Shown here: in pieces, positions 16,636-24,153 of the stretch
How the letters are laid out: every line of letters starts with the position of its first letter
How positions within the stretch are numbered: the first letter of the stretch is position 1
Origin: a virus
Taxonomy: Duplodnaviria; Heunggongvirae; Uroviricota; Caudoviricetes
DNA: 32,675 bases
Direction: 5' to 3' (one strand)
IMG/VR virus record: IMGVR_UViG_2663763159_000003
Coordinates: 1-32,675 of that record
Notes under the pieces: generated by a model
Databases searched by the model: none
The model's input: only the letters and a program-made list of their open reading frames with translations
What the model was told of the DNA's origin: nothing
Program-made: the position numbers and the translations under genes

Positions 16636-16711
16636 TGGTGCTGGTTAACGGACTTGAACCGCTACCCATTCGCTTACAAGGCGACCGCTCTACCATTGGA
16701 GCTAAACCAGC
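16636..16711 (-). tRNA. tRNA-Thr(UGU)-like, 76 nt with encoded CCA
   Basis: Hand-folded cloverleaf: acceptor GCUGGUU/AACCAGC, D-arm GCUC-CAAUGGUA-GAGC, anticodon loop CUUGUAA, T-arm AGCGG-UUCAAGU-CCGUU. Confidence 0.6.
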
Positions 16712-16716
16712 ATATT

Positions 16717-16791
16717 TGGCGGGACAGCGTGGACTCGAACCACGATAAGAAGGTTAACAGCCTTCCGTAATGACCTTTATACGACTGACCC
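16717..16791 (-). tRNA. tRNA-Asn(GUU)-like, 75 nt, deviant D-arm (possibly degenerate)
   Basis: Anticodon arm GAAGG-CUGUUAA-CCUUC, T-arm CGUGG-UUCGAGU-CCACG, acceptor with one U-U mismatch, CCA encoded. Confidence 0.45.
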
Positions 16792-18878: not shown

Positions 18879-19169
18879 TCATCTTTTAACTCCATATACC
18901 GCCAATACCCGTTTCATCGCGGCACTCTGGCGACACTCCTTAAAAATCAGGTTCGTGCTCATCTTTCCTTCCCGTTCTTCCCTGGTAGCAAACCGGTAAT
19001 ACACCGTTCGCCAGACCTTACCTTCGATAACCAGAAGACCTGCCCGTGCCATTTTAGCCGCGGCCTGATTTATGCTGGTTACTGTTGCGCCTGTTAGCGC
19101 GGCAACGTCCGGCGCACAGAAGCTATTATGCGTCCCCAGGTAATGAATAATTGCCTCTTTGCCCGTCAT
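18879..19169 (-). CDS. ren: Ren
   Basis: 96 aa, matches λ Ren as recalled. Confidence 0.9.
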   Translation of the reverse strand: MTGKEAIIHYLGTHNSFCAPDVAALTGATVTSINQAAAKMARAGLLVIEGKVWRTVYYRFATREEREGKMSTNLIFKECRQSAAMKRVLAVYGVKR

Positions 19170-19867
19170 ACACTTGCTCCTTTCAGTCCGAACTTAGCTT
19201 TGATTTCTGCGATCTTCGCCAGAGCCTGTGCACGATTTAGAGGTCTACCGCCCATGACAGGAAGTTGTTTTACTGGTTCAGGGATCGCCTCACCACGGTT
19301 AATTCTCGCAGTCATATGGACAAGCTCATCTGCGGCCTTACGGCGTAATTCCGCATCAGTAAGCGCATTGGCCCGCATGTTCTGATACAGGTTGGTAACC
19401 AGCCAGTAGTGCGCGTTTGATTTCCACGGATAAGACTCCGCATCCGGATACAGGCCTCGCTTCCGGCAATACTCGTAAACCATATCAACCAGCTCGCTGG
19501 CGTTTGGCAGCCCGGCGGTAACGGATGCTTCTTCCCGGCACCATGCAACAAACTGCCCGGGTGATGGCAGAAATGGTCGATTCTGCCGACGGGCTACGCG
19601 CATTCCTGCGTTAACCTGTTCCATTGTGGTGATCCCGTTTTCCCGGAAAGCCAGCACCCACTGGCGGCGGATTTCGTTCAGTTCGTTCTGGTCCCGGTTA
19701 GCTAGGCTCGCCGGGAAAGTTGCCAGTAACTGGCTGAACACACCATTGATGATCTGCGCTACCTGTTGTACCTGCGGCTTTTCGTCGTACTGTTCCGGCA
19801 TGTTGTTGGCGATCCGACGCATCTGCTCACGGTCAAAGTTAACCATCTGTGCGGCGATGTTTTTCAT
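19166..19867 (-). CDS. P: Replication protein P (DnaB loader)
   Basis: 233 aa, matches λ P as recalled. Confidence 0.95.
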   Translation of the reverse strand: MKNIAAQMVNFDREQMRRIANNMPEQYDEKPQVQQVAQIINGVFSQLLATFPASLANRDQNELNEIRRQWVLAFRENGITTMEQVNAGMRVARRQNRPFLPSPGQFVAWCREEASVTAGLPNASELVDMVYEYCRKRGLYPDAESYPWKSNAHYWLVTNLYQNMRANALTDAELRRKAADELVHMTARINRGEAIPEPVKQLPVMGGRPLNRAQALAKIAEIKAKFGLKGASV

Positions 19868-20763
19868 AAATCCACCCCGTAAATCCAGTCAGTGTTTGTC
19901 AGGTCGAGTTTTGGTTTGCTGGCTGTCACGCCTGCCTGTTGCTTGTTACGGTTGATTTCGAGCTGGGTCCACTTGTCGCGGAGTTTGGCCGGACTCAGCA
20001 CGTTACCGGACCAGAAGTTGTCCTGGCAGGCCCAGCGGAAAAGCACACACATATCGCGGTGGTTACGTCCGTCACGTTCACGCATCAGGCGGATATCGTT
20101 AGCCCACCCAGCAAAATTCGGTTTTCTGGCTGATGGCGCGATGGTCTTCACCATGTCAAACATCCACTCTGCGGCGGTCAGGTCTTCTGCTGTTCCCCAC
20201 TTGCTGCCGCTCTGAATTGCAGCATCCGGTTTAACCACAGAAAGATCGTTTTCTGGCTGGTCAGAGGATTCGCCAGAATTCTCTGACGAATAATCTTTTC
20301 TTTTTTCTTTTGTAATAGTGTCTTTTGTGTCCCCCTGTTTTGAGGGATAGCAATCCCCCAATTTGAGGGATGTTTTATCCCTCGTTTTAGGGGATTTTCC
20401 CTCGTTTTGAGGGATACACCATTCTGAGATGTTTTTATTTGGTCCAAACATGCCGCCTTGCTGCTTGATAATATTCATTCTGACGAGTTCTAACTTGGCT
20501 TCATTGCACCGTTTGACAGGTAACTTTGTAATCTCGCTAAGTTGAGAATCGGTGATTCTGTCCATTGGTTTATTCCACCCATAGGTTTTACGCAGAATGG
20601 CAAGCAGCACTTTAAACTGTCGCTTGGTCAGATCTGCGCCCGAATAAGCCTCAAGCAGCATATTTGATAGTCTGGCGTAACCATCATCGAGATCTGCCAC
20701 ATTACGCTCCTGTCCGGCAAAGTTACCTCTGCCGAAGTTGAGTATTTTTGCTGTATTTGTCAT
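19864..20763 (-). CDS. O: Replication initiator O
   Basis: 299 aa, matches λ O as recalled; contains ori iterons in its coding sequence. Confidence 0.95.
   Translation of the reverse strand: MTNTAKILNFGRGNFAGQERNVADLDDGYARLSNMLLEAYSGADLTKRQFKVLLAILRKTYGWNKPMDRITDSQLSEITKLPVKRCNEAKLELVRMNIIKQQGGMFGPNKNISEWCIPQNEGKSPKTRDKTSLKLGDCYPSKQGDTKDTITKEKRKDYSSENSGESSDQPENDLSVVKPDAAIQSGSKWGTAEDLTAAEWMFDMVKTIAPSARKPNFAGWANDIRLMRERDGRNHRDMCVLFRWACQDNFWSGNVLSPAKLRDKWTQLEINRNKQQAGVTASKPKLDLTNTDWIYGVDL
20268..20415 (-). repeat. ori-λ: four ~19-bp iterons plus adjacent AT-rich region inside O
   Basis: Four tandem copies of atccctc-(a/g)ttttgagggat-type repeats at 20331..20415, AT-rich tract 20268..20330. Confidence 0.85.
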
Positions 20764-20795: not shown

Positions 20796-21092
20796 TCAGA
20801 ATTGCATATCAATTTGCTTAGAGTCCCCGGCGGCCACCGGGGATTTTTTCTTTGTGATTCCATCAAGCGCATACTTAAAAGCCCTACTAATCGGACTGAT
20901 GTCTGATGCCATTCCGAAAGCACACAAGACTGAAGCAATAAATCTCCAGTCCGTTCTGCTTATCTTCGATTCATGACAGCCAATCATCTTTGCCAGACCG
21001 CGCTGGGTAATAGTTGACAGATTGATAAGTAAATCTGTTTCTGCGCGATCAACGTCACGCTGTGATAGTTTGCTGTAACTTGTTCTTTCCAT
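20796..21092 (-). CDS. cII: CII-like transcriptional activator
   Basis: 98 aa, HTH region and C-terminal ...KKKSPVAAGDSKQIDMQF resembling λ CII terminus; position between cro and O. Confidence 0.7.
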   Translation of the reverse strand: MERTSYSKLSQRDVDRAETDLLINLSTITQRGLAKMIGCHESKISRTDWRFIASVLCAFGMASDISPISRAFKYALDGITKKKSPVAAGDSKQIDMQF

Positions 21093-21195
21093 TTCTTAAG
21101 ATTTCCAATAGTGAATAGTTAGTTGAAAGGTATGCGTGGAAACGCATATGGCCTTAGTTGGTCAGATATCTTGGGACTCGCTTTTCAGCGACGTA

Positions 21196-21223
21196 GGACG
21201 AATGTCCGTTGTTACAAAGAGCG
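21196..21223 (-). promoter_or_regulatory. nutR candidate: boxA CGCUCUUUGUAACAA plus hairpin CGGAC-AUU-CGUCC
   Basis: Located just downstream of the cro stop; boxA matches consensus closely. Confidence 0.5.
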
Positions 21224-21230
21224 GGGTTAC

Positions 21231-21458
21231 TTATGCTGCCAGAAGGTTCTTTTTGCTTATTTCAAGCAATTCGCTTGCTTGATATTTGCCACCAGAAATC
21301 TCTTCGATTTTTGAGGCGTATTTCGTTTTCCCAAAAAACTCAGTCTTAGGGAGGAAGCCGTTTTTGAGCCACTTATAGACAGCCCTTTCGCTAACTCCAC
21401 AAGCCTTCGCAACTTCAGGGATGCCGACACCTTTAATCGGCTCATCAAGATTTTGCAT
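21231..21458 (-). CDS. cro: Cro-like repressor (HTH)
   Basis: 75 aa, HTH segment VAKACGVSERAVYKW, divergent from cI across a 79-bp operator region. Confidence 0.7.
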   Translation of the reverse strand: MQNLDEPIKGVGIPEVAKACGVSERAVYKWLKNGFLPKTEFFGKTKYASKIEEISGGKYQASELLEISKKNLLAA

Positions 21459-21537
21459 AGGAATATCCCTTTTTCGTACTTTTAGTACGCATTATGGTTG
21501 AACTGAAAGTTTTTGCAAGTGCTTTAGTATCGTACTC
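21459..21537. promoter_or_regulatory. OR operator / PR-PRM region
   Basis: Perfect palindrome cgtacttttagtacg at 21475..21489 and related site tttagtatcgtact at 21523..21536. Confidence 0.6.
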
Positions 21538-22245
21538 ATGGTTCAGAATGAAAAAGTGCGCAAAGAATTCGCCCAGCGGCTAGCGCAAGCCTGTAAAGAA
21601 GCTGGTCTTGATGAACATGGTAGGGGTATGGCCATAGCCCGTGCCCTTTCTCTTTCGTCCAAAGGCGTTAGCAAATGGTTTAATGCTGAGTCTTTACCGC
21701 GTCAGGAAAAAATGAATGCGCTTGCGAAATTTCTAAACGTTGATGTTGTTTGGCTTCAGCACGGCACTTCGTTAAATGGAGCGAATGATGAAGATACTCT
21801 TTCATTTGTTGGCAAATTAAAAAAAGGGTTAGTGCGCGTGGTTGGTGAGGCAATTCTTGGTGTTGATGGTGCCATCGAGATGACCGAAGAGCGCGATGGG
21901 TGGCTCAAGATTTATAGTGATGATCCAGATGCCTTTGGTCTTCGTGTGAAAGGAGACAGCATGTGGCCCAGAATAAAATCAGGAGAATATGTACTCATTG
22001 AGCCTAACACCAAAGTATTCCCGGGGGATGAGGTGTTTGTCAGAACCGTTGAAGGACACAACATGATCAAGATTCTTGGCTATGACAGAGATGGAGAATA
22101 CCAATTTACAAGCATCAACCAGGACCACAGGCCAATAACGTTACCTTATCATCAAGTAGCAAAGGTGGAGTATGTGGCTGGTATTCTGAAGCAATCTCGT
22201 CATCTGGATGACATCGAGGCAAGGGAGTGGCTGAAAAGTTTGTGA
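21538..22245 (+). CDS. cI: CI repressor (N-terminal HTH, C-terminal LexA/S24-like autopeptidase)
   Basis: 235 aa; C-terminal region with G.SM and K motifs typical of S24 peptidases; divergent from cro. Confidence 0.85.
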   Translation: MVQNEKVRKEFAQRLAQACKEAGLDEHGRGMAIARALSLSSKGVSKWFNAESLPRQEKMNALAKFLNVDVVWLQHGTSLNGANDEDTLSFVGKLKKGLVRVVGEAILGVDGAIEMTEERDGWLKIYSDDPDAFGLRVKGDSMWPRIKSGEYVLIEPNTKVFPGDEVFVRTVEGHNMIKILGYDRDGEYQFTSINQDHRPITLPYHQVAKVEYVAGILKQSRHLDDIEAREWLKSL

Positions 22246-22368
22246 CTTCAAGTACGCGACAAGCCCCGTCCTTCAGGGCGTGGAGGATGTCAAAATAACT
22301 TTAAATAACACACCACCAACATTTAACACATTGAATTAAAAAACCTACAATATTTGATGAGAGGCGTT

Positions 22369-22689
22369 ATGGAACCGGTCAAAATTAAACCATCTGTGGA
22401 TTATATTGAAACCTATGCGGACTTCGCTAGTTTTGCTCCACTACCGGGAGCGGAAAAAAATCTCATTTGTATACATTTTATCGCAAACAAGTCAATACCT
22501 GCGGTACTATCCCAAAATGATATACCAGATCAACCAGGTAGAGCGAATATGCAGATAGGCTCTGTAAATGAACTCAATCAGCAATGCACTGTGATAATGC
22601 CAATGGCACAACTAAAGGCTCTTCAAGAGAATATAGTTCTTCTTTTCGAACAATTAGAGGCACAAAACTCTAATGGAGCGAAGTCGTAA
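22369..22689 (+). CDS. Hypothetical soluble protein, first gene of the rex-slot cassette
   Basis: Start taken at MEPVK with GAGAGG RBS; stop overlaps next start (TAATG). Confidence 0.6.
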   Translation: MEPVKIKPSVDYIETYADFASFAPLPGAEKNLICIHFIANKSIPAVLSQNDIPDQPGRANMQIGSVNELNQQCTVIMPMAQLKALQENIVLLFEQLEAQNSNGAKS

Positions 22690-23372
22690 TGCAACAACCG
22701 GAAGAAGTAGGTGATTTAACTATTACTTACAAAACATCAAGTATTGTTAAACCACTGCAAGTTTCCCTGAATAACGTTAATACTCGCGATTTCATGATGT
22801 TCATGGAAACAGCAAAAGGTAATCTGTTTTCTACGCCTATTTCCTCTTATTCACCAAAAAACATGGTGGATGATGCGACCAATTCCCAGCTAACTGCTAC
22901 AATCGTAGATAAAGGAGGGGTTGCCGATTGTAAAGGACAATCTAATGTTATCCCACCGTACGAGGAAACTCCTATACAGGGAACCGCAATGTCCGATTTG
23001 AGCAGAAACGAAATACAGGCACTTCTGAAGGCAAATAAAGCTGAAGTGGATGCAGTGGCCTCAAAAATGCAGGCTGATATGGCCAAATGGCGTGAACTAA
23101 TGGCTTCAGATATAAAGGAGATGAAGCATTTAGTTGTTACTCAGCACGAACAAATCAACAGTCGTCTGGACATACAATCGAGTAGAATTGAGAGTGCCCT
23201 TGACTCCCAATCAAAAAAGATCGATGCAGCTCTTTCTGTTCAAGAGGCAAAGTTAGAAGGTAAGCTTAGTGATGTTAAGCTTGATATAATCAAATGGGCC
23301 CTTGGCTTGCCAGCATTAGCATTTACTGTATATAAAATCTACGGATTGCTCTCTGGAGTCTCAACCCCCTAA
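22689..23372 (+). CDS. Hypothetical tail-anchored coiled-coil membrane protein, second gene of the rex-slot cassette
   Basis: 227 aa; Gln/Ser/Lys-rich heptad-like region residues ~105-200; C-terminal hydrophobic helix IIKWALGLPALAFTVYKIYGLLSGV. Confidence 0.7.
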   Translation: MQQPEEVGDLTITYKTSSIVKPLQVSLNNVNTRDFMMFMETAKGNLFSTPISSYSPKNMVDDATNSQLTATIVDKGGVADCKGQSNVIPPYEETPIQGTAMSDLSRNEIQALLKANKAEVDAVASKMQADMAKWRELMASDIKEMKHLVVTQHEQINSRLDIQSSRIESALDSQSKKIDAALSVQEAKLEGKLSDVKLDIIKWALGLPALAFTVYKIYGLLSGVSTP

Positions 23373-23378
23373 TACACA

Positions 23379-23402
23379 CCCGGCCTCAGTGCCGGGTTTT
23401 CT
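23379..23402 (+). terminator. Rho-independent terminator ending the cI operon
   Basis: cccggcctcagtgccggg followed by tttt. Confidence 0.6.
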
Positions 23403-23559
23403 TTGCCCAACGTTCGCCCACCTAAAAACACATAATCGATTGTATTTATTGAAAAACTGATAGATACAACTTGCTAAACAGTGCAACCCTGATCCCTGCC
23501 CCATCACCTTCATCCTCAACATTTACAAAAATAAAATACCTTATATATCAAAACCATAT

Positions 23560-23678
23560 CTCGAGAAAACGAATGAACAACAAATTTTCGTACTTATGGT
23601 TCTTGATTGTATCGAACCAATAGTTCATTATTATCACCATCAGCAGGACGCTGGAAGCCAAATGGAACAGACTGGCAG
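23560..23678 (+). promoter_or_regulatory. pL / OL region (approximate)
   Basis: Contains ttttcgtactt at 23585..23595, the same half-site as in OR; lies upstream of nutL and N. Confidence 0.35.
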
Positions 23679-23706
23679 GCTCTTTAAACAACGTCGAACA
23701 CTCGAC
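23679..23706 (+). promoter_or_regulatory. nutL candidate: boxA GCUCUUUAAACAA plus hairpin GUCGA-ACAC-UCGAC
   Basis: boxA nearly identical to consensus; 5-bp stem immediately downstream; ~115 nt upstream of N. Confidence 0.5.
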
Positions 23707-23822
23707 TACGTGGCTGAAAAGCCAGACCACCCAACCACATAAGCTGTGGGATGCAATGCCGAAGCAACCGGCTCAGGAGGAGCTTCGAGATTGCATCGCC
23801 AAAGTTTATTCGGGAGGAATCT

Positions 23823-24095
23823 ATGTCCAGAAAAACAGAATTTAAAGGCACCGCAGCTTCTCGCCGTAGAGCTCGTCGTGCAAACCTGCAAAGTCAGGAG
23901 GCGATCAGCTCTGACAAACTACACAGGCCAACCCCTTCACGAGTGGTCTTACAATGCAAACGCAAACCAGTAATGAGAGCAGAAGTAATAACACTGACAA
24001 CGTTGACCAGAAAATATGAAGGCTCAACTTGTCTTCCAAATGTAGCCATTTACGCGGCAGGCTACAGGAAATCCAAACAGCTGACAGCAAGATGA
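23823..24095 (+). CDS. N-like antiterminator with arginine-rich motif
   Basis: Start at ATG 23823 with GGGAGG RBS; N-terminal GTAASRRRARRANLQ arginine-rich motif; position after pL/nutL. Confidence 0.7.
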   Translation: MSRKTEFKGTAASRRRARRANLQSQEAISSDKLHRPTPSRVVLQCKRKPVMRAEVITLTTLTRKYEGSTCLPNVAIYAAGYRKSKQLTAR

Positions 24096-24153
24096 CTTGT
24101 GTTGGTCGCCAGAAAATGAAATTAGGCAGCAAACCACTTATTTGAGGTGAGAT

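What the first reader, a model, noticed from the sequence alone, without database searches (positions are those of the whole stretch)
21196..23706. nutL and nutR candidates share boxA but have different hairpins
Both sites have a near-consensus boxA (GCUCUUUAAACAA at nutL; CGCUCUUUGUAACAA at nutR) followed by a short hairpin. The stems differ (GUCGA-ACAC-UCGAC versus GGAC-AUUC-GUCC), whereas the two nut sites of one phage usually carry the same boxB for one N protein. Either my boxB calls are off or this phage has diverged nut sites, which matters for N specificity given its non-λ arginine-rich motif.
Basis: seen in the sequence. Interest (0 to 1): 0.35.

Follow-up and report, generated by a model that had tools for sequence, protein, structure and literature searches.

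The report
Ordinary nut sites; boxB was mislocated
The two antitermination (nut) sites of this prophage are real and already catalogued in Shiga-toxin phage records; the two "different hairpins" are spacer stem-loops, and the true N-binding hairpin (boxB) lies four bases further downstream and is essentially the same at both sites.

Summary
The window holds a lambdoid immunity region in inverted orientation. They share the 5' linker CUACG, the GNRA loop, the closing U-A pair and the 3' AG, and differ by one compensatory pair swap. That is boxB.

In 160 related loci the boxB loop tracks the N type, not the immunity module:
- This 90-aa N: GAAA at both sites in 75 of 76 loci with both sites in range.
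- H-19B-type N: GACAA at both sites in 75 of 75.

boxB and the spacer stems are invariant within each N type, while the spacer loops vary freely. GenBank records for VT2-Sakai and 933W already annotate these nut sites, and the window's nutR is identical to VT2-Sakai's.

One small residual point: boxB here is a true GAAA tetraloop, the P22/H-19B GACAA loop without its extruded C, and it co-varies with one residue of the N arginine-rich motif.

The parts
23604..23632 (+). Probable pL promoter (TTGATT-17 nt-CATTAT), which would start the leftward transcript about 40 nt upstream of nutL boxA. Inferred only.
   Evidence: Read from the sequence. It matches 8 of 12 consensus positions, below the scanner's threshold. 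The position corresponds to the annotated pL of VT2-Sakai.
23679..23691 (+). nutL boxA, GCUCUUUAAACAA. The 8-nt core GCUCUUUA (23679-23686) matches the rrn consensus at 8 of 8 positions.
   Evidence: rrn boxA is UGCUCUUUA and lambda boxA is CGCUCUUA (PMC2724277). NusB-NusE recognise 8 nt of boxA (PMC3177189).
23693..23706 (+). nutL spacer stem-loop GUCGA-ACAC-UCGAC.
   Evidence: Fold -5.7 kcal/mol, z -3.65. The stem is invariant and the loop variable in 80 loci. The position corresponds to the H-19B nutL spacer dyad GAUUC-GAAUAU-GAAUC.
23707..23710 (+). nutL linker UACG. With the last C of the spacer stem it forms the CUACG motif found in every nut site of this clade.
   Evidence: these are invariant columns in 11 distinct nut sites.
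23711..23724 (+). nutL boxB, UGGCU-GAAA-AGCCA: a 5-bp stem, a GNRA tetraloop and a closing U-A pair.
   Evidence: Identical in all 80 of 80 nutL sites found in loci with this N type. Lies within the annotated nutL of VT2-Sakai.
23739..23809 (+). Long N-leader hairpin between nutL and the N ribosome-binding site.
   Evidence: Fold -38.5 kcal/mol, z -4.31, 0 of 200 shuffles as stable.
23823..24095 (+). N antiterminator gene, 90 aa. Arginine-rich motif: GTAASRRRARRANLQ.
   Evidence: Pfam PF25694 N_peptide, E = 2.2e-32. phrog_271, 6e-26. 97.8% identical to VT2-Sakai N and 100% to phage EC.P3.
21491..21518 (-). Probable pR promoter (TTGCAA-16 nt-CATAAT), upstream of cro.
   Evidence: Promoter scan. 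The position corresponds to the annotated pR of 933W.
21209..21223 (-). nutR boxA, CGCUCUUUGUAACAA. The core GCUCUUUG matches the rrn consensus at 7 of 8 positions.
21196..21207 (-). nutR spacer stem-loop GGAC-AUUC-GUCC.
   Evidence: H-19B nutR has 'two hairpins', one in the spacer and one at boxB, both footprinted by N plus NusA/NusG (PMC3526286). An A-to-G variant in 5 loci keeps the pair as G-U.
21192..21195 (-). nutR linker UACG.
21178..21191 (-). nutR boxB, UCGCU-GAAA-AGCGA.
   Evidence: Identical in 75 of 75 nutR sites of this N type. The boxA-to-boxB sequence is identical to VT2-Sakai's annotated nutR.
21131..21148 (-). Hairpin UAUGCGU-UUCC-ACGCAUA, about 30 nt downstream of nutR boxB, in the tR1 region.
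   Evidence: Annotated in VT2-Sakai as 'putative rho dependent terminator for pR transcript'. Salmonella relatives have AUGCGC-CAGU-GCGCAU at the same place.

Best explanation
These are the two N-utilisation sites of a lambdoid prophage of the Stx-phage / H-19B lineage. Each is built as boxA, ACAAC, a spacer stem-loop, the linker UACG, then boxB.

Inferred mechanism. The nascent pL and pR transcripts fold boxB into a 5-bp stem with a closing U-A pair and a GAAA (GNRA) tetraloop. The arginine-rich N-terminus of the 90-aa N protein binds it. The near-consensus boxA recruits NusB-NusE, and NusA binds the spacer. The resulting complex makes RNA polymerase resistant to the terminators downstream (tR1 and beyond; tL).

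They most likely fold 12-14 nt out of the way, so the effective linear spacer (6-7 nt plus 4 nt) is about lambda's 8-9 nt. This is the 'reducer' role proposed for H-19B. Their sequence is free to differ between nutL and nutR because only the fold matters.

Shown here: the anatomy, the conservation, the compensatory changes and the co-variation of boxB loop with N type. Inferred: binding, Nus-factor use and the reducer role.
For: 1. Both sites share CUACGU-sGCU-GAAA-AGCs-AG. The composite pattern has 2 hits against 0 expected.
2. Position and strand are right for nutL (upstream of N) and nutR (between cro and cII). N is confirmed by Pfam at 2e-32.
3. Public records annotate the same stretches as nutL (VT2-Sakai), nutR (933W, running to the end of the second hairpin) and nutR (VT2-Sakai, identical to the window).
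4. In 160 IMG/VR loci the boxB loop follows the N type. GAAA is at both sites in 75 of 76 loci with this N and both sites in range. GACAA is at both sites in 75 of 75 loci with H-19B-type N. This holds across nutL-nutR distances of 1262-2978 nt and at least 4 different cro 3' ends.
5. Within each N type there are no boxB variants and no pair-breaking change in a spacer stem, while the spacer loops vary.
6. Across 11 distinct nut sites, 98.7% of cells are paired and 4 of 7 pairs changed on both sides. The covariation score is 0.558 against 0.133 in shuffles (0 of 500), and all slid controls collapse.
7. Three unrelated spacer inserts each form a flush hairpin of at least 4 bp; the chance is about 0.004 per insert.
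8. H-19B nutR has two hairpins, and N plus NusA/NusG protects the spacer and boxB (PMC3526286).
9. Lambda N recognises a GNRA fold plus the closing U-A pair (PMC12027372). In the P22 boxB structure the C of GACAA is looped out of a GNRA-like fold (PMC12550061).
10. Against 933W, differences concentrate in the nutR core (10.9%, in boxA and the boxB loop only) compared with 1.8% in cro and 2.4% in the downstream spacer; Fisher p = 0.007.
Against: There is no experimental evidence for this N type or for a GAAA-tetraloop boxB; everything functional is transferred from H-19B, lambda and P22. The reducer role rests on my recollection of Neely & Friedman 2000, which the tools could not open; only its title and citation were confirmed. 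On energy alone the nutR spacer hairpin is not better than shuffles (z -0.61). The three spacer types are few independent observations. One locus (L073) pairs this N with a lambda-type nutR, though its O gene is frameshifted.
Confidence: 0.9

Rival explanations
1. One reading: the first hairpins (GUCGA-ACAC-UCGAC and GGAC-AUUC-GUCC) are the boxB elements, so the phage has two diverged boxBs for one N.
For: They are the first hairpins after boxA and they do fold. In lambda and P22, boxB follows boxA after a spacer of about 8-10 nt.
Against: Their loops (ACAC, AUUC) are not GNRA-like and are not shared between the sites. The nutL loop varies (ACAC, ACUC, CUC, AUC, GCAC) among phages with N at least 97% identical. 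The same nutR hairpin serves phages with two different N arginine-rich motifs. A near-identical GNRA hairpin lies 4 nt downstream at both sites and co-varies with N type. The 933W depositors extend nutR to the second hairpin. H-19B footprinting names the first hairpin 'spacer' and the second 'boxB'.
Confidence: 0.03
2. The spacer hairpins are sequence-specific or structure-specific binding sites in their own right, for example for NusA or, at nutR, for Rho loading (rut), rather than passive length reducers.
For: In H-19B nutR, Rho alone footprints the spacer region, and NusA and Rho can be cross-linked there (PMC3526286). NusA binds the lambda nut spacer (PMC2724277). The stems are strictly conserved within each type.
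Against: Three unrelated sequences occupy the position, which argues against sequence-specific recognition. The loops drift freely. The conserved parts are the linear flanks ACAAYG and CUACG. From memory of Neely & Friedman 2000, deleting the dyad had little effect and compensatory changes restored function.
Confidence: 0.2
3. An alternative long-range helix between boxA (sGCUCUUU) and the 3' half of boxB (AAAAGCs) encloses the spacer hairpin and acts as a switch competing with boxB formation.
For: It is the minimum-free-energy fold of the 69-nt nutL RNA (-17.7 kcal/mol, z -2.93) and also appears at nutR. The base before GCU (G at nutL, C at nutR) matches the swapped boxB pair.
Against: At nutR it is not better than shuffles (z -0.66), and the centroid structure there shows the two local hairpins. 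The pairing is not kept in relatives: Shigella 75/02 nutL has A before GCU, three loci have U, MG40 nutR has CCUCUUU, and H-19B nutL has no boxA at all. Local hairpins form first during transcription.
Confidence: 0.05

Closest known systems
nutL and nutR of Stx phage VT2-Sakai (GenBank AP000422), with the same N type (97.8% identical)
   Same: nutR is identical from boxA to boxB. nutL is identical apart from a change in the spacer-hairpin loop (window GUCGA-ACAC-UCGAC, VT2-Sakai GUCG-ACUCU-CGAC). The boxB sequences, linker and boxA are the same. Both sites are annotated in the record as putative N-utilization sites.
   Different: The immunity module between the sites differs: the window's cI and cro resemble 933W and phage 86, and its pL/OL region has no megablast match in the phage collection. 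The VT2-Sakai annotation spans stop inside the boxB loop.
nutR and nutL of phage H-19B and 933W (Neely & Friedman 2000, Mol Microbiol 38:1074; used in PMC3526286 and PMC4499122)
   Same: Same architecture: boxA, ACAAYG, spacer stem-loop, CUACG, boxB. The nutR spacer hairpin GGAC-AUUC-GUCC is identical and the nutR boxB stem UCGCU/AGCGA is the same. In H-19B the two sites also have different spacer hairpins.
   Different: The boxB loop is GACAA in H-19B and GAAA here. The N proteins are about 40% identical and have a different arginine-rich motif (RRRERLKAK in H-19B, RRRARRANL here). H-19B boxA is degenerate at nutR (GCUAUUUU) and absent at nutL, whereas both window sites have near-consensus boxA.
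Phage P22 nut sites and the N-peptide-boxB complex (PDB 1A4T)
   Same: GNRA-type boxB recognised by an arginine-rich helix. The P22-type C-terminus of N (AAG[YH]RKSKQ[LI]TAR) is shared.
   Different: P22 has a GACAA pentaloop with an extruded C and a short unstructured spacer with no spacer hairpin.
Phage lambda nutL and nutR
   Same: Same position, boxA, a boxB with a U-A closing pair and a GNRA fold, and the arginine-rich core RRRERRA (RRRARRA here).
   Different: Lambda has a GAAAA/GAAGA pentaloop (fourth base extruded), a GCCCU stem, an 8-9 nt linear spacer, the shorter boxA CGCUCUUA, and Trp18 in N, which has no counterpart here.

Membership tests
Lambdoid N-utilisation (nut) site | One site lies on the pL transcript upstream of N, and one on the pR transcript between cro and cII. 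| tested here: met
   ORF map and Pfam: N, cI (S24 + HTH), cro (HTH) and cII (PF05269). nutL lies 99 nt upstream of the N start; nutR lies between cro and cII.
Lambdoid N-utilisation (nut) site | boxA close to the consensus (rrn UGCUCUUUA, lambda CGCUCUUA). | tested here: met
   GCUCUUUA at nutL (8 of 8) and GCUCUUUG at nutR (7 of 8).
Lambdoid N-utilisation (nut) site | boxB hairpin with a GNRA-type loop and a closing U-A pair. | tested here: met
   UGGCU-GAAA-AGCCA and UCGCU-GAAA-AGCGA. Recognition rules from PMC12027372.
Lambdoid N-utilisation (nut) site | The two sites of one phage carry the same boxB specificity, matched to its N. | tested here: met
   Same loop, closing pair and flanks, with one compensatory swap. 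The loop tracks N type in 150 of 151 loci with both sites in range.
Lambdoid N-utilisation (nut) site | A cognate N protein with an N-terminal arginine-rich motif. | tested here: met
   PF25694, 2.2e-32; phrog_271. Arginine-rich motif alignment.
Lambdoid N-utilisation (nut) site | N-dependent and Nus-dependent antitermination in vivo or in vitro. | not testable with these tools
   Needs a reporter assay. Shown experimentally only for H-19B nutR (PMC3526286, PMC4499122).
H-19B-type nut site (spacer stem-loop, 'reducer') | [quoted passage not shown] | tested here: met
   5-bp stem at nutL and 4-bp stem at nutR. The nutR hairpin is identical to H-19B's.
H-19B-type nut site (spacer stem-loop, 'reducer') | The structure, not the sequence, of the spacer dyad is conserved. 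| tested here: met
   Three unrelated inserts all form flush hairpins. The second pair is G-C, A-U or U-A. An A-to-G change keeps a G-U pair, and the loops vary.
H-19B-type nut site (spacer stem-loop, 'reducer') | GACAA boxB loop matched to H-19B-type N. | tested here: not met
   The window has GAAA, and its N is only about 40% identical to H-19B N. It belongs to a sister specificity group, not the H-19B group itself.
H-19B-type nut site (spacer stem-loop, 'reducer') | boxA dispensable, and NusB and S10 not required (recalled from Neely & Friedman 2000). | not testable with these tools
   H-19B has a degenerate or absent boxA, whereas the window has near-consensus boxA at both sites. That hints at the opposite dependence, but it was not tested.

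The most novel reading that the evidence does not exclude
This widespread N type (VT2-Sakai, ev207, many E. coli prophages, with relatives in Shigella 75/02 and Salmonella MG40) uses a genuine GNRA tetraloop boxB (GAAA or GCAA). That is the P22/H-19B GACAA loop without the extruded C.

The loop co-varies with one position of the arginine-rich motif. The residue aligned with P22 Arg11, which contacts the extruded C in PDB 1A4T, is Arg or Lys in the GACAA phages and Ala in the tetraloop phages (as it is in lambda).

In lambda the extruded loop base is reported to matter for NusA-dependent complex formation (from memory: Chattopadhyay 1995, Legault 1998). A natural tetraloop boxB would then mean an N-NusA-RNA assembly that needs no extruded base. 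It might be compensated by the near-consensus rrn-like boxA, implying NusB/NusE dependence, unlike H-19B.
Probability: 0.4. Interest if true: 0.4.

Novelty: already known. Interest (0 to 1): 0.15.

Why it matters
For the scan, this closes the finding. There is no divergence in N specificity in this phage, only a boxB that was placed one hairpin too early.

It gives a practical rule for annotating nut sites in the Stx-phage / H-19B clade. boxB is the second hairpin after boxA. It is preceded by CUACG, and its loop (GAAA or GACAA) identifies the N specificity group.

The residual biological interest is modest. A natural GNRA-tetraloop boxB paired with an Ala at the position that contacts the extruded base in P22 offers a simple, testable case of co-evolution between an arginine-rich motif and its RNA. 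N-dependent antitermination also controls early gene expression in Stx prophages.

Tried and rejected
- **Rfam:** at gathering thresholds the whole window gives only two tRNAs and no curated nut or boxB family.
- **PDB sequence search with N:** no hit even at E = 10, because the solved N peptides are too short or too divergent for phmmer. The arginine-rich motifs were therefore compared by alignment with sequences translated from the phage records.
- **Neely & Friedman 2000:** not held by the paper tools. Only its citation and title were verified, so its findings are cited from memory.
- **Literature on this N type:** searches for 'VT2-Sakai' with nutL/nutR and for a tetraloop boxB in lambdoid phages found nothing specific.
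- **Long-range boxA:boxB-3' helix:** considered as a regulatory switch because it is the minimum-free-energy fold at nutL. Rejected because it is not conserved in relatives and not significant at nutR.
- **L078 and L080:** these lack a nutR and looked like exceptions, but they are deleted prophage remnants (cI, truncated cro, a Q-like gene, then a host lipocalin gene).
- **L073:** this N paired with a lambda nutR could have indicated cross-recognition, but its O gene is frameshifted, so it is probably a decaying prophage. The isolated phage ev207 has a matched pair.
- **MAFFT alignment of the spacer helices:** MAFFT could not put spacer helices of different lengths in register. Only the two outer spacer pairs went into the pair counts, and the inner pairs were compared by hand and by Monte Carlo.
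- **Not run:** no covariance model was built, since the exact-pattern survey already covered every locus. The large protein-homology and structure-prediction tools were not used because they would not bear on the question.
Full report
**Context.** The window carries a lambdoid early region, inverted relative to the usual lambda map.
- On the - strand: P (19166-19867), O (19864-20763), cII (20796-21092) and cro (21231-21458).
- On the + strand: cI (21538-22245), two cargo ORFs in the rex position (22354-23372), a terminator (23378-23397) and N (23823-24095).
- Pfam confirms N (PF25694, 2.2e-32), cII (PF05269), and cI as an HTH plus S24 peptidase protein.
- So pL reads rightwards on the + strand and pR leftwards on the - strand.

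**Checking the observation.** The quoted sequences are all present.
- nutL: GCUCUUUAAACAA (23679-23691, +), then GUCGA-ACAC-UCGAC (23693-23706).
- nutR: CGCUCUUUGUAACAA (21223-21209, -), then GGAC-AUUC-GUCC (21207-21196).
- The nutL hairpin folds better than shuffles (z -3.65). The nutR hairpin does not (z -0.61).
- boxA alone is not above chance: there are five GCTCTTT heptamers on the two strands, and a relaxed pattern is expected 3.4 times.

- Each folds into a 5-bp stem with a closing U-A pair and a GAAA loop: UGGCU-GAAA-AGCCA (23711-23724, +) and UCGCU-GAAA-AGCGA (21191-21178, -).
- The only stem difference is a G-C to C-G swap.
- The composite pattern GCTCTTT-N18-26-CTACGTSGCTGAAAAGCSAG occurs twice in the window, at these sites, with 0 expected in 100 shuffles.
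- These hairpins have what lambda-type N proteins are known to read, a GNRA fold and the closing U-A pair (PMC12027372).

**Public annotation.** The N/nutL segment is 96.7% identical to VT2-Sakai and Stx1 phages. The cro-nutR-cII segment is 95-96% identical to 933W and phage 86.
- The VT2-Sakai record annotates a 'putative N-utilization leftward' over the same nutL.
- It also annotates a 'putative N-utilization rightward' whose boxA-to-boxB sequence is identical to the window's.
- The 933W record annotates nutR from boxA to the last base of the second hairpin.
- The exact 3-kb module is present at 100% identity in complete E. coli genomes; 40 genomes have at least 80% coverage.

**The reference system.**
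- H-19B nutR reads CGCUAUUUUCACAAUG-GAC-AUUC-GUC-CUACG-UCGCU-GACAA-AGCGA. H-19B nutL reads ...AUACAACG-AUUC-GAAUAU-GAAU-CUACG-GCGCU-GACAA-AGCGC.
- PMC3526286 states that H-19B nutR has 'two hairpins', a spacer hairpin and boxB. It reports that N plus NusA/NusG protects the spacer and boxB but not boxA, and that Rho footprints the spacer.
- The paper that introduced these spacer dyads is Neely & Friedman 2000. Its citation and title were confirmed, but the text was not available. As I recall it, one-arm mutations inactivate the site, compensatory changes restore it, and deletion has little effect. That led to the 'reducer' idea, that the stem-loop shortens the effective spacer.

**Comparative test.** I collected 80 IMG/VR loci encoding this N type at 97% identity or more and 80 encoding H-19B-type N.
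- With this N type, every nutL found has UGGCU-GAAA-AGCCA (80 sites).
- Of the 76 sources with both sites in range (75 IMG/VR loci plus the window itself), 75 have UCGCU-GAAA-AGCGA at nutR.
- With H-19B-type N, 75 of 75 loci with both sites in range have GCGCU-GACAA-AGCGC at nutL and UCGCU-GACAA-AGCGA at nutR.
- nutL-nutR distances run from 1262 to 2978 nt, and at least four different cro 3' ends precede nutR. The boxB loop therefore follows N, not the immunity module.
- Exceptions: loci whose flank is too short; two deleted prophage remnants (L078 and L080); and L073, which joins this N and nutL to an authentic lambda cI-cro-nutR-cII but has a frameshifted O.
- The isolated lambda-like phage ev207 has a matched GAAA pair.
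- Within each N type, boxB has no variant at all. The spacer stems have none except an A-to-G change that keeps a G-U pair. The spacer loops drift: ACAC, ACUC, CUC, AUC and GCAC in one group; GAAUAU, AAGCAA, AAAUAU and AAACAU in the other.
- Against 933W (same cI/cro type, other N type), the 46-nt nutR core differs at 10.9% of positions: four in boxA, one being the loop C, and none in either stem. cro differs at 1.8% and the downstream spacer at 2.4% (Fisher p = 0.007).

**Wider relatives.**

| Phage | nutL boxB loop | nutR boxB loop | Spacer hairpin |
|---|---|---|---|
| Window and VT2-Sakai type | GAAA | GAAA | yes |
| Shigella 75/02 Stx (N 83% identical) | GCAA | GAAA | yes |
| Salmonella MG40 | GAAA | GAAA | yes (GAUUCA-GUGA-UGAAUC and GGAC-AAUC-GUCC) |
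| Salmonella 103203_sal5 | GUCAA | GACAA | yes |
| H-19B and 933W | GACAA | GACAA | yes |
| P22 | GACAA | GACAA | no |
| lambda | GAAGA | GAAAA | no |

- On an alignment of 11 distinct nut sites, the five boxB pairs and the two alignable spacer pairs are paired in 98.7% of cells.
- Four of the seven pairs changed on both sides.
- The covariation score is 0.558, against 0.133 +/- 0.046 in shuffles (0 of 500 reach it), and every slid control collapses.
- The three unrelated spacer inserts each close flush with 4-6 Watson-Crick pairs. The chance per insert is about 0.004.
- The linear flanks ACAAYG and CUACG are invariant.
- With the hairpin folded out, the linear spacer is 6-7 nt plus 4 nt, close to lambda's 8-9 nt.

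**N specificity.** In the arginine-rich motif alignment:
- The tetraloop phages read RRR[A/E][R/H]RA: RRRARRA in the window, RRRAHRA in Shigella 75/02 and RRRERRA in MG40.
- The GACAA phages read RRRERLK (H-19B, sal5) or RRHERRR (P22).
- In the P22 complex (PDB 1A4T), the looped-out C of GACAA contacts His7 and Arg11 (PMC12550061). By alignment, the Arg11 position is Lys in H-19B and Ala in the tetraloop phages and in lambda.
- This is an inference from alignment, not a structure. It fits the idea that GAAA is the GACAA loop with the extruded base removed and the contacting side chain lost.

**boxA.** Both window sites carry a near-consensus, rrn-like boxA: GCUCUUUA and GCUCUUUG, against rrn UGCUCUUUA (PMC2724277). 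H-19B has GCUAUUUU at nutR and nothing recognisable at nutL. As I recall, H-19B N is reported to be independent of NusB and S10. This N type may differ, but that is untested.

**Verdict.** The sites are real nut sites of a known, annotated type. Novelty: already known. Interest is low. The only mildly new point is the natural GNRA-tetraloop boxB and its co-variation with one residue of the N arginine-rich motif.

Noticed in passing
L073 (IMGVR_UViG_2531839234_000006): nutL at 3734-3780 (+), lambda-type nutR around 1102-1072 (-): A natural hybrid. It has the window-type N and GAAA nutL joined to authentic lambda cI, cro, nutR (GCCCUGAAAAAGGGC) and cII, so the two boxBs are mismatched. Its O gene is frameshifted (202 aa instead of 299), so it may be a decaying prophage rather than evidence that this N reads lambda boxB.
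   Followed up: partly
window 23739-23809 (+): A very stable long hairpin (-38.5 kcal/mol, z -4.3, 0 of 200 shuffles as stable) fills the N leader between nutL boxB and the N ribosome-binding site. It is reminiscent of the RNase III-processed lambda N leader (from memory). It is conserved in VT2-Sakai and Shigella 75/02.
   Followed up: partly
window 24092-24145 (+): A 17-codon ORF overlapping the N stop codon reads MTCVGRQKMKLGSKPLI. This is the lambda/phi21-type N C-terminus (lambda: ITCSGRQKIKGKSIPLI), in another frame directly after the P22-type C-terminus AAGYRKSKQLTAR. H-19B has it too. It may be a frameshift relic or an alternative C-terminus.
   Followed up: partly
window 21131-21148 (-): Hairpin UAUGCGU-UUCC-ACGCAUA, about 30 nt downstream of nutR boxB. 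VT2-Sakai annotates it as a putative Rho-dependent terminator (tR1). Salmonella relatives have AUGCGC-CAGU-GCGCAU at the same place, so the structure is kept through compensatory changes.
   Followed up: partly
window 22354-22689 and 22689-23372 (+): Two cargo ORFs sit in the rexA/rexB position downstream of cI, followed by a strong terminator. The 111-aa protein has no Pfam or PHROG hit. The 227-aa protein matches phrog_14825 (unknown function), has a sub-threshold CCDC90-like coiled-coil match, and looks hydrophobic at its C-terminus (by eye, not tested). They are candidates for a prophage-encoded exclusion or defence function.
   Followed up: partly
window 16636-16711 and 16717-16791 (-): Two adjacent tRNA genes, tRNA-Thr (UGU) and tRNA-Asn (GUU), on the late (pR-sense) strand of the prophage.
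   Followed up: partly
L086 (about 756, -) and L132 (about 1084, -): Two loci with H-19B-type N and GACAA nut sites carry an additional GAAA-type UCGCUGAAAAGCGA hairpin on the same strand, about 3 kb beyond their own nutR. This could be a neighbouring prophage or a recombination scar.
   Followed up: no
L165 (Shigella phage 75/02 Stx, NC_029120) 5001-5270: The RefSeq record has no CDS annotated over its N gene (83% identical to the window's N). Its nutL boxB loop is GCAA while its nutR loop is GAAA, so the second loop position (N of GNRA) is free to vary.
   Followed up: partly
window 23380-23628 (+): The pL/OL operator region upstream of nutL has no megablast match in the 50,697-record phage collection, although the flanking N/nutL and cro/nutR segments match at 95-97%. 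The same module is nevertheless present at 100% identity in complete E. coli genomes.
   Followed up: partly
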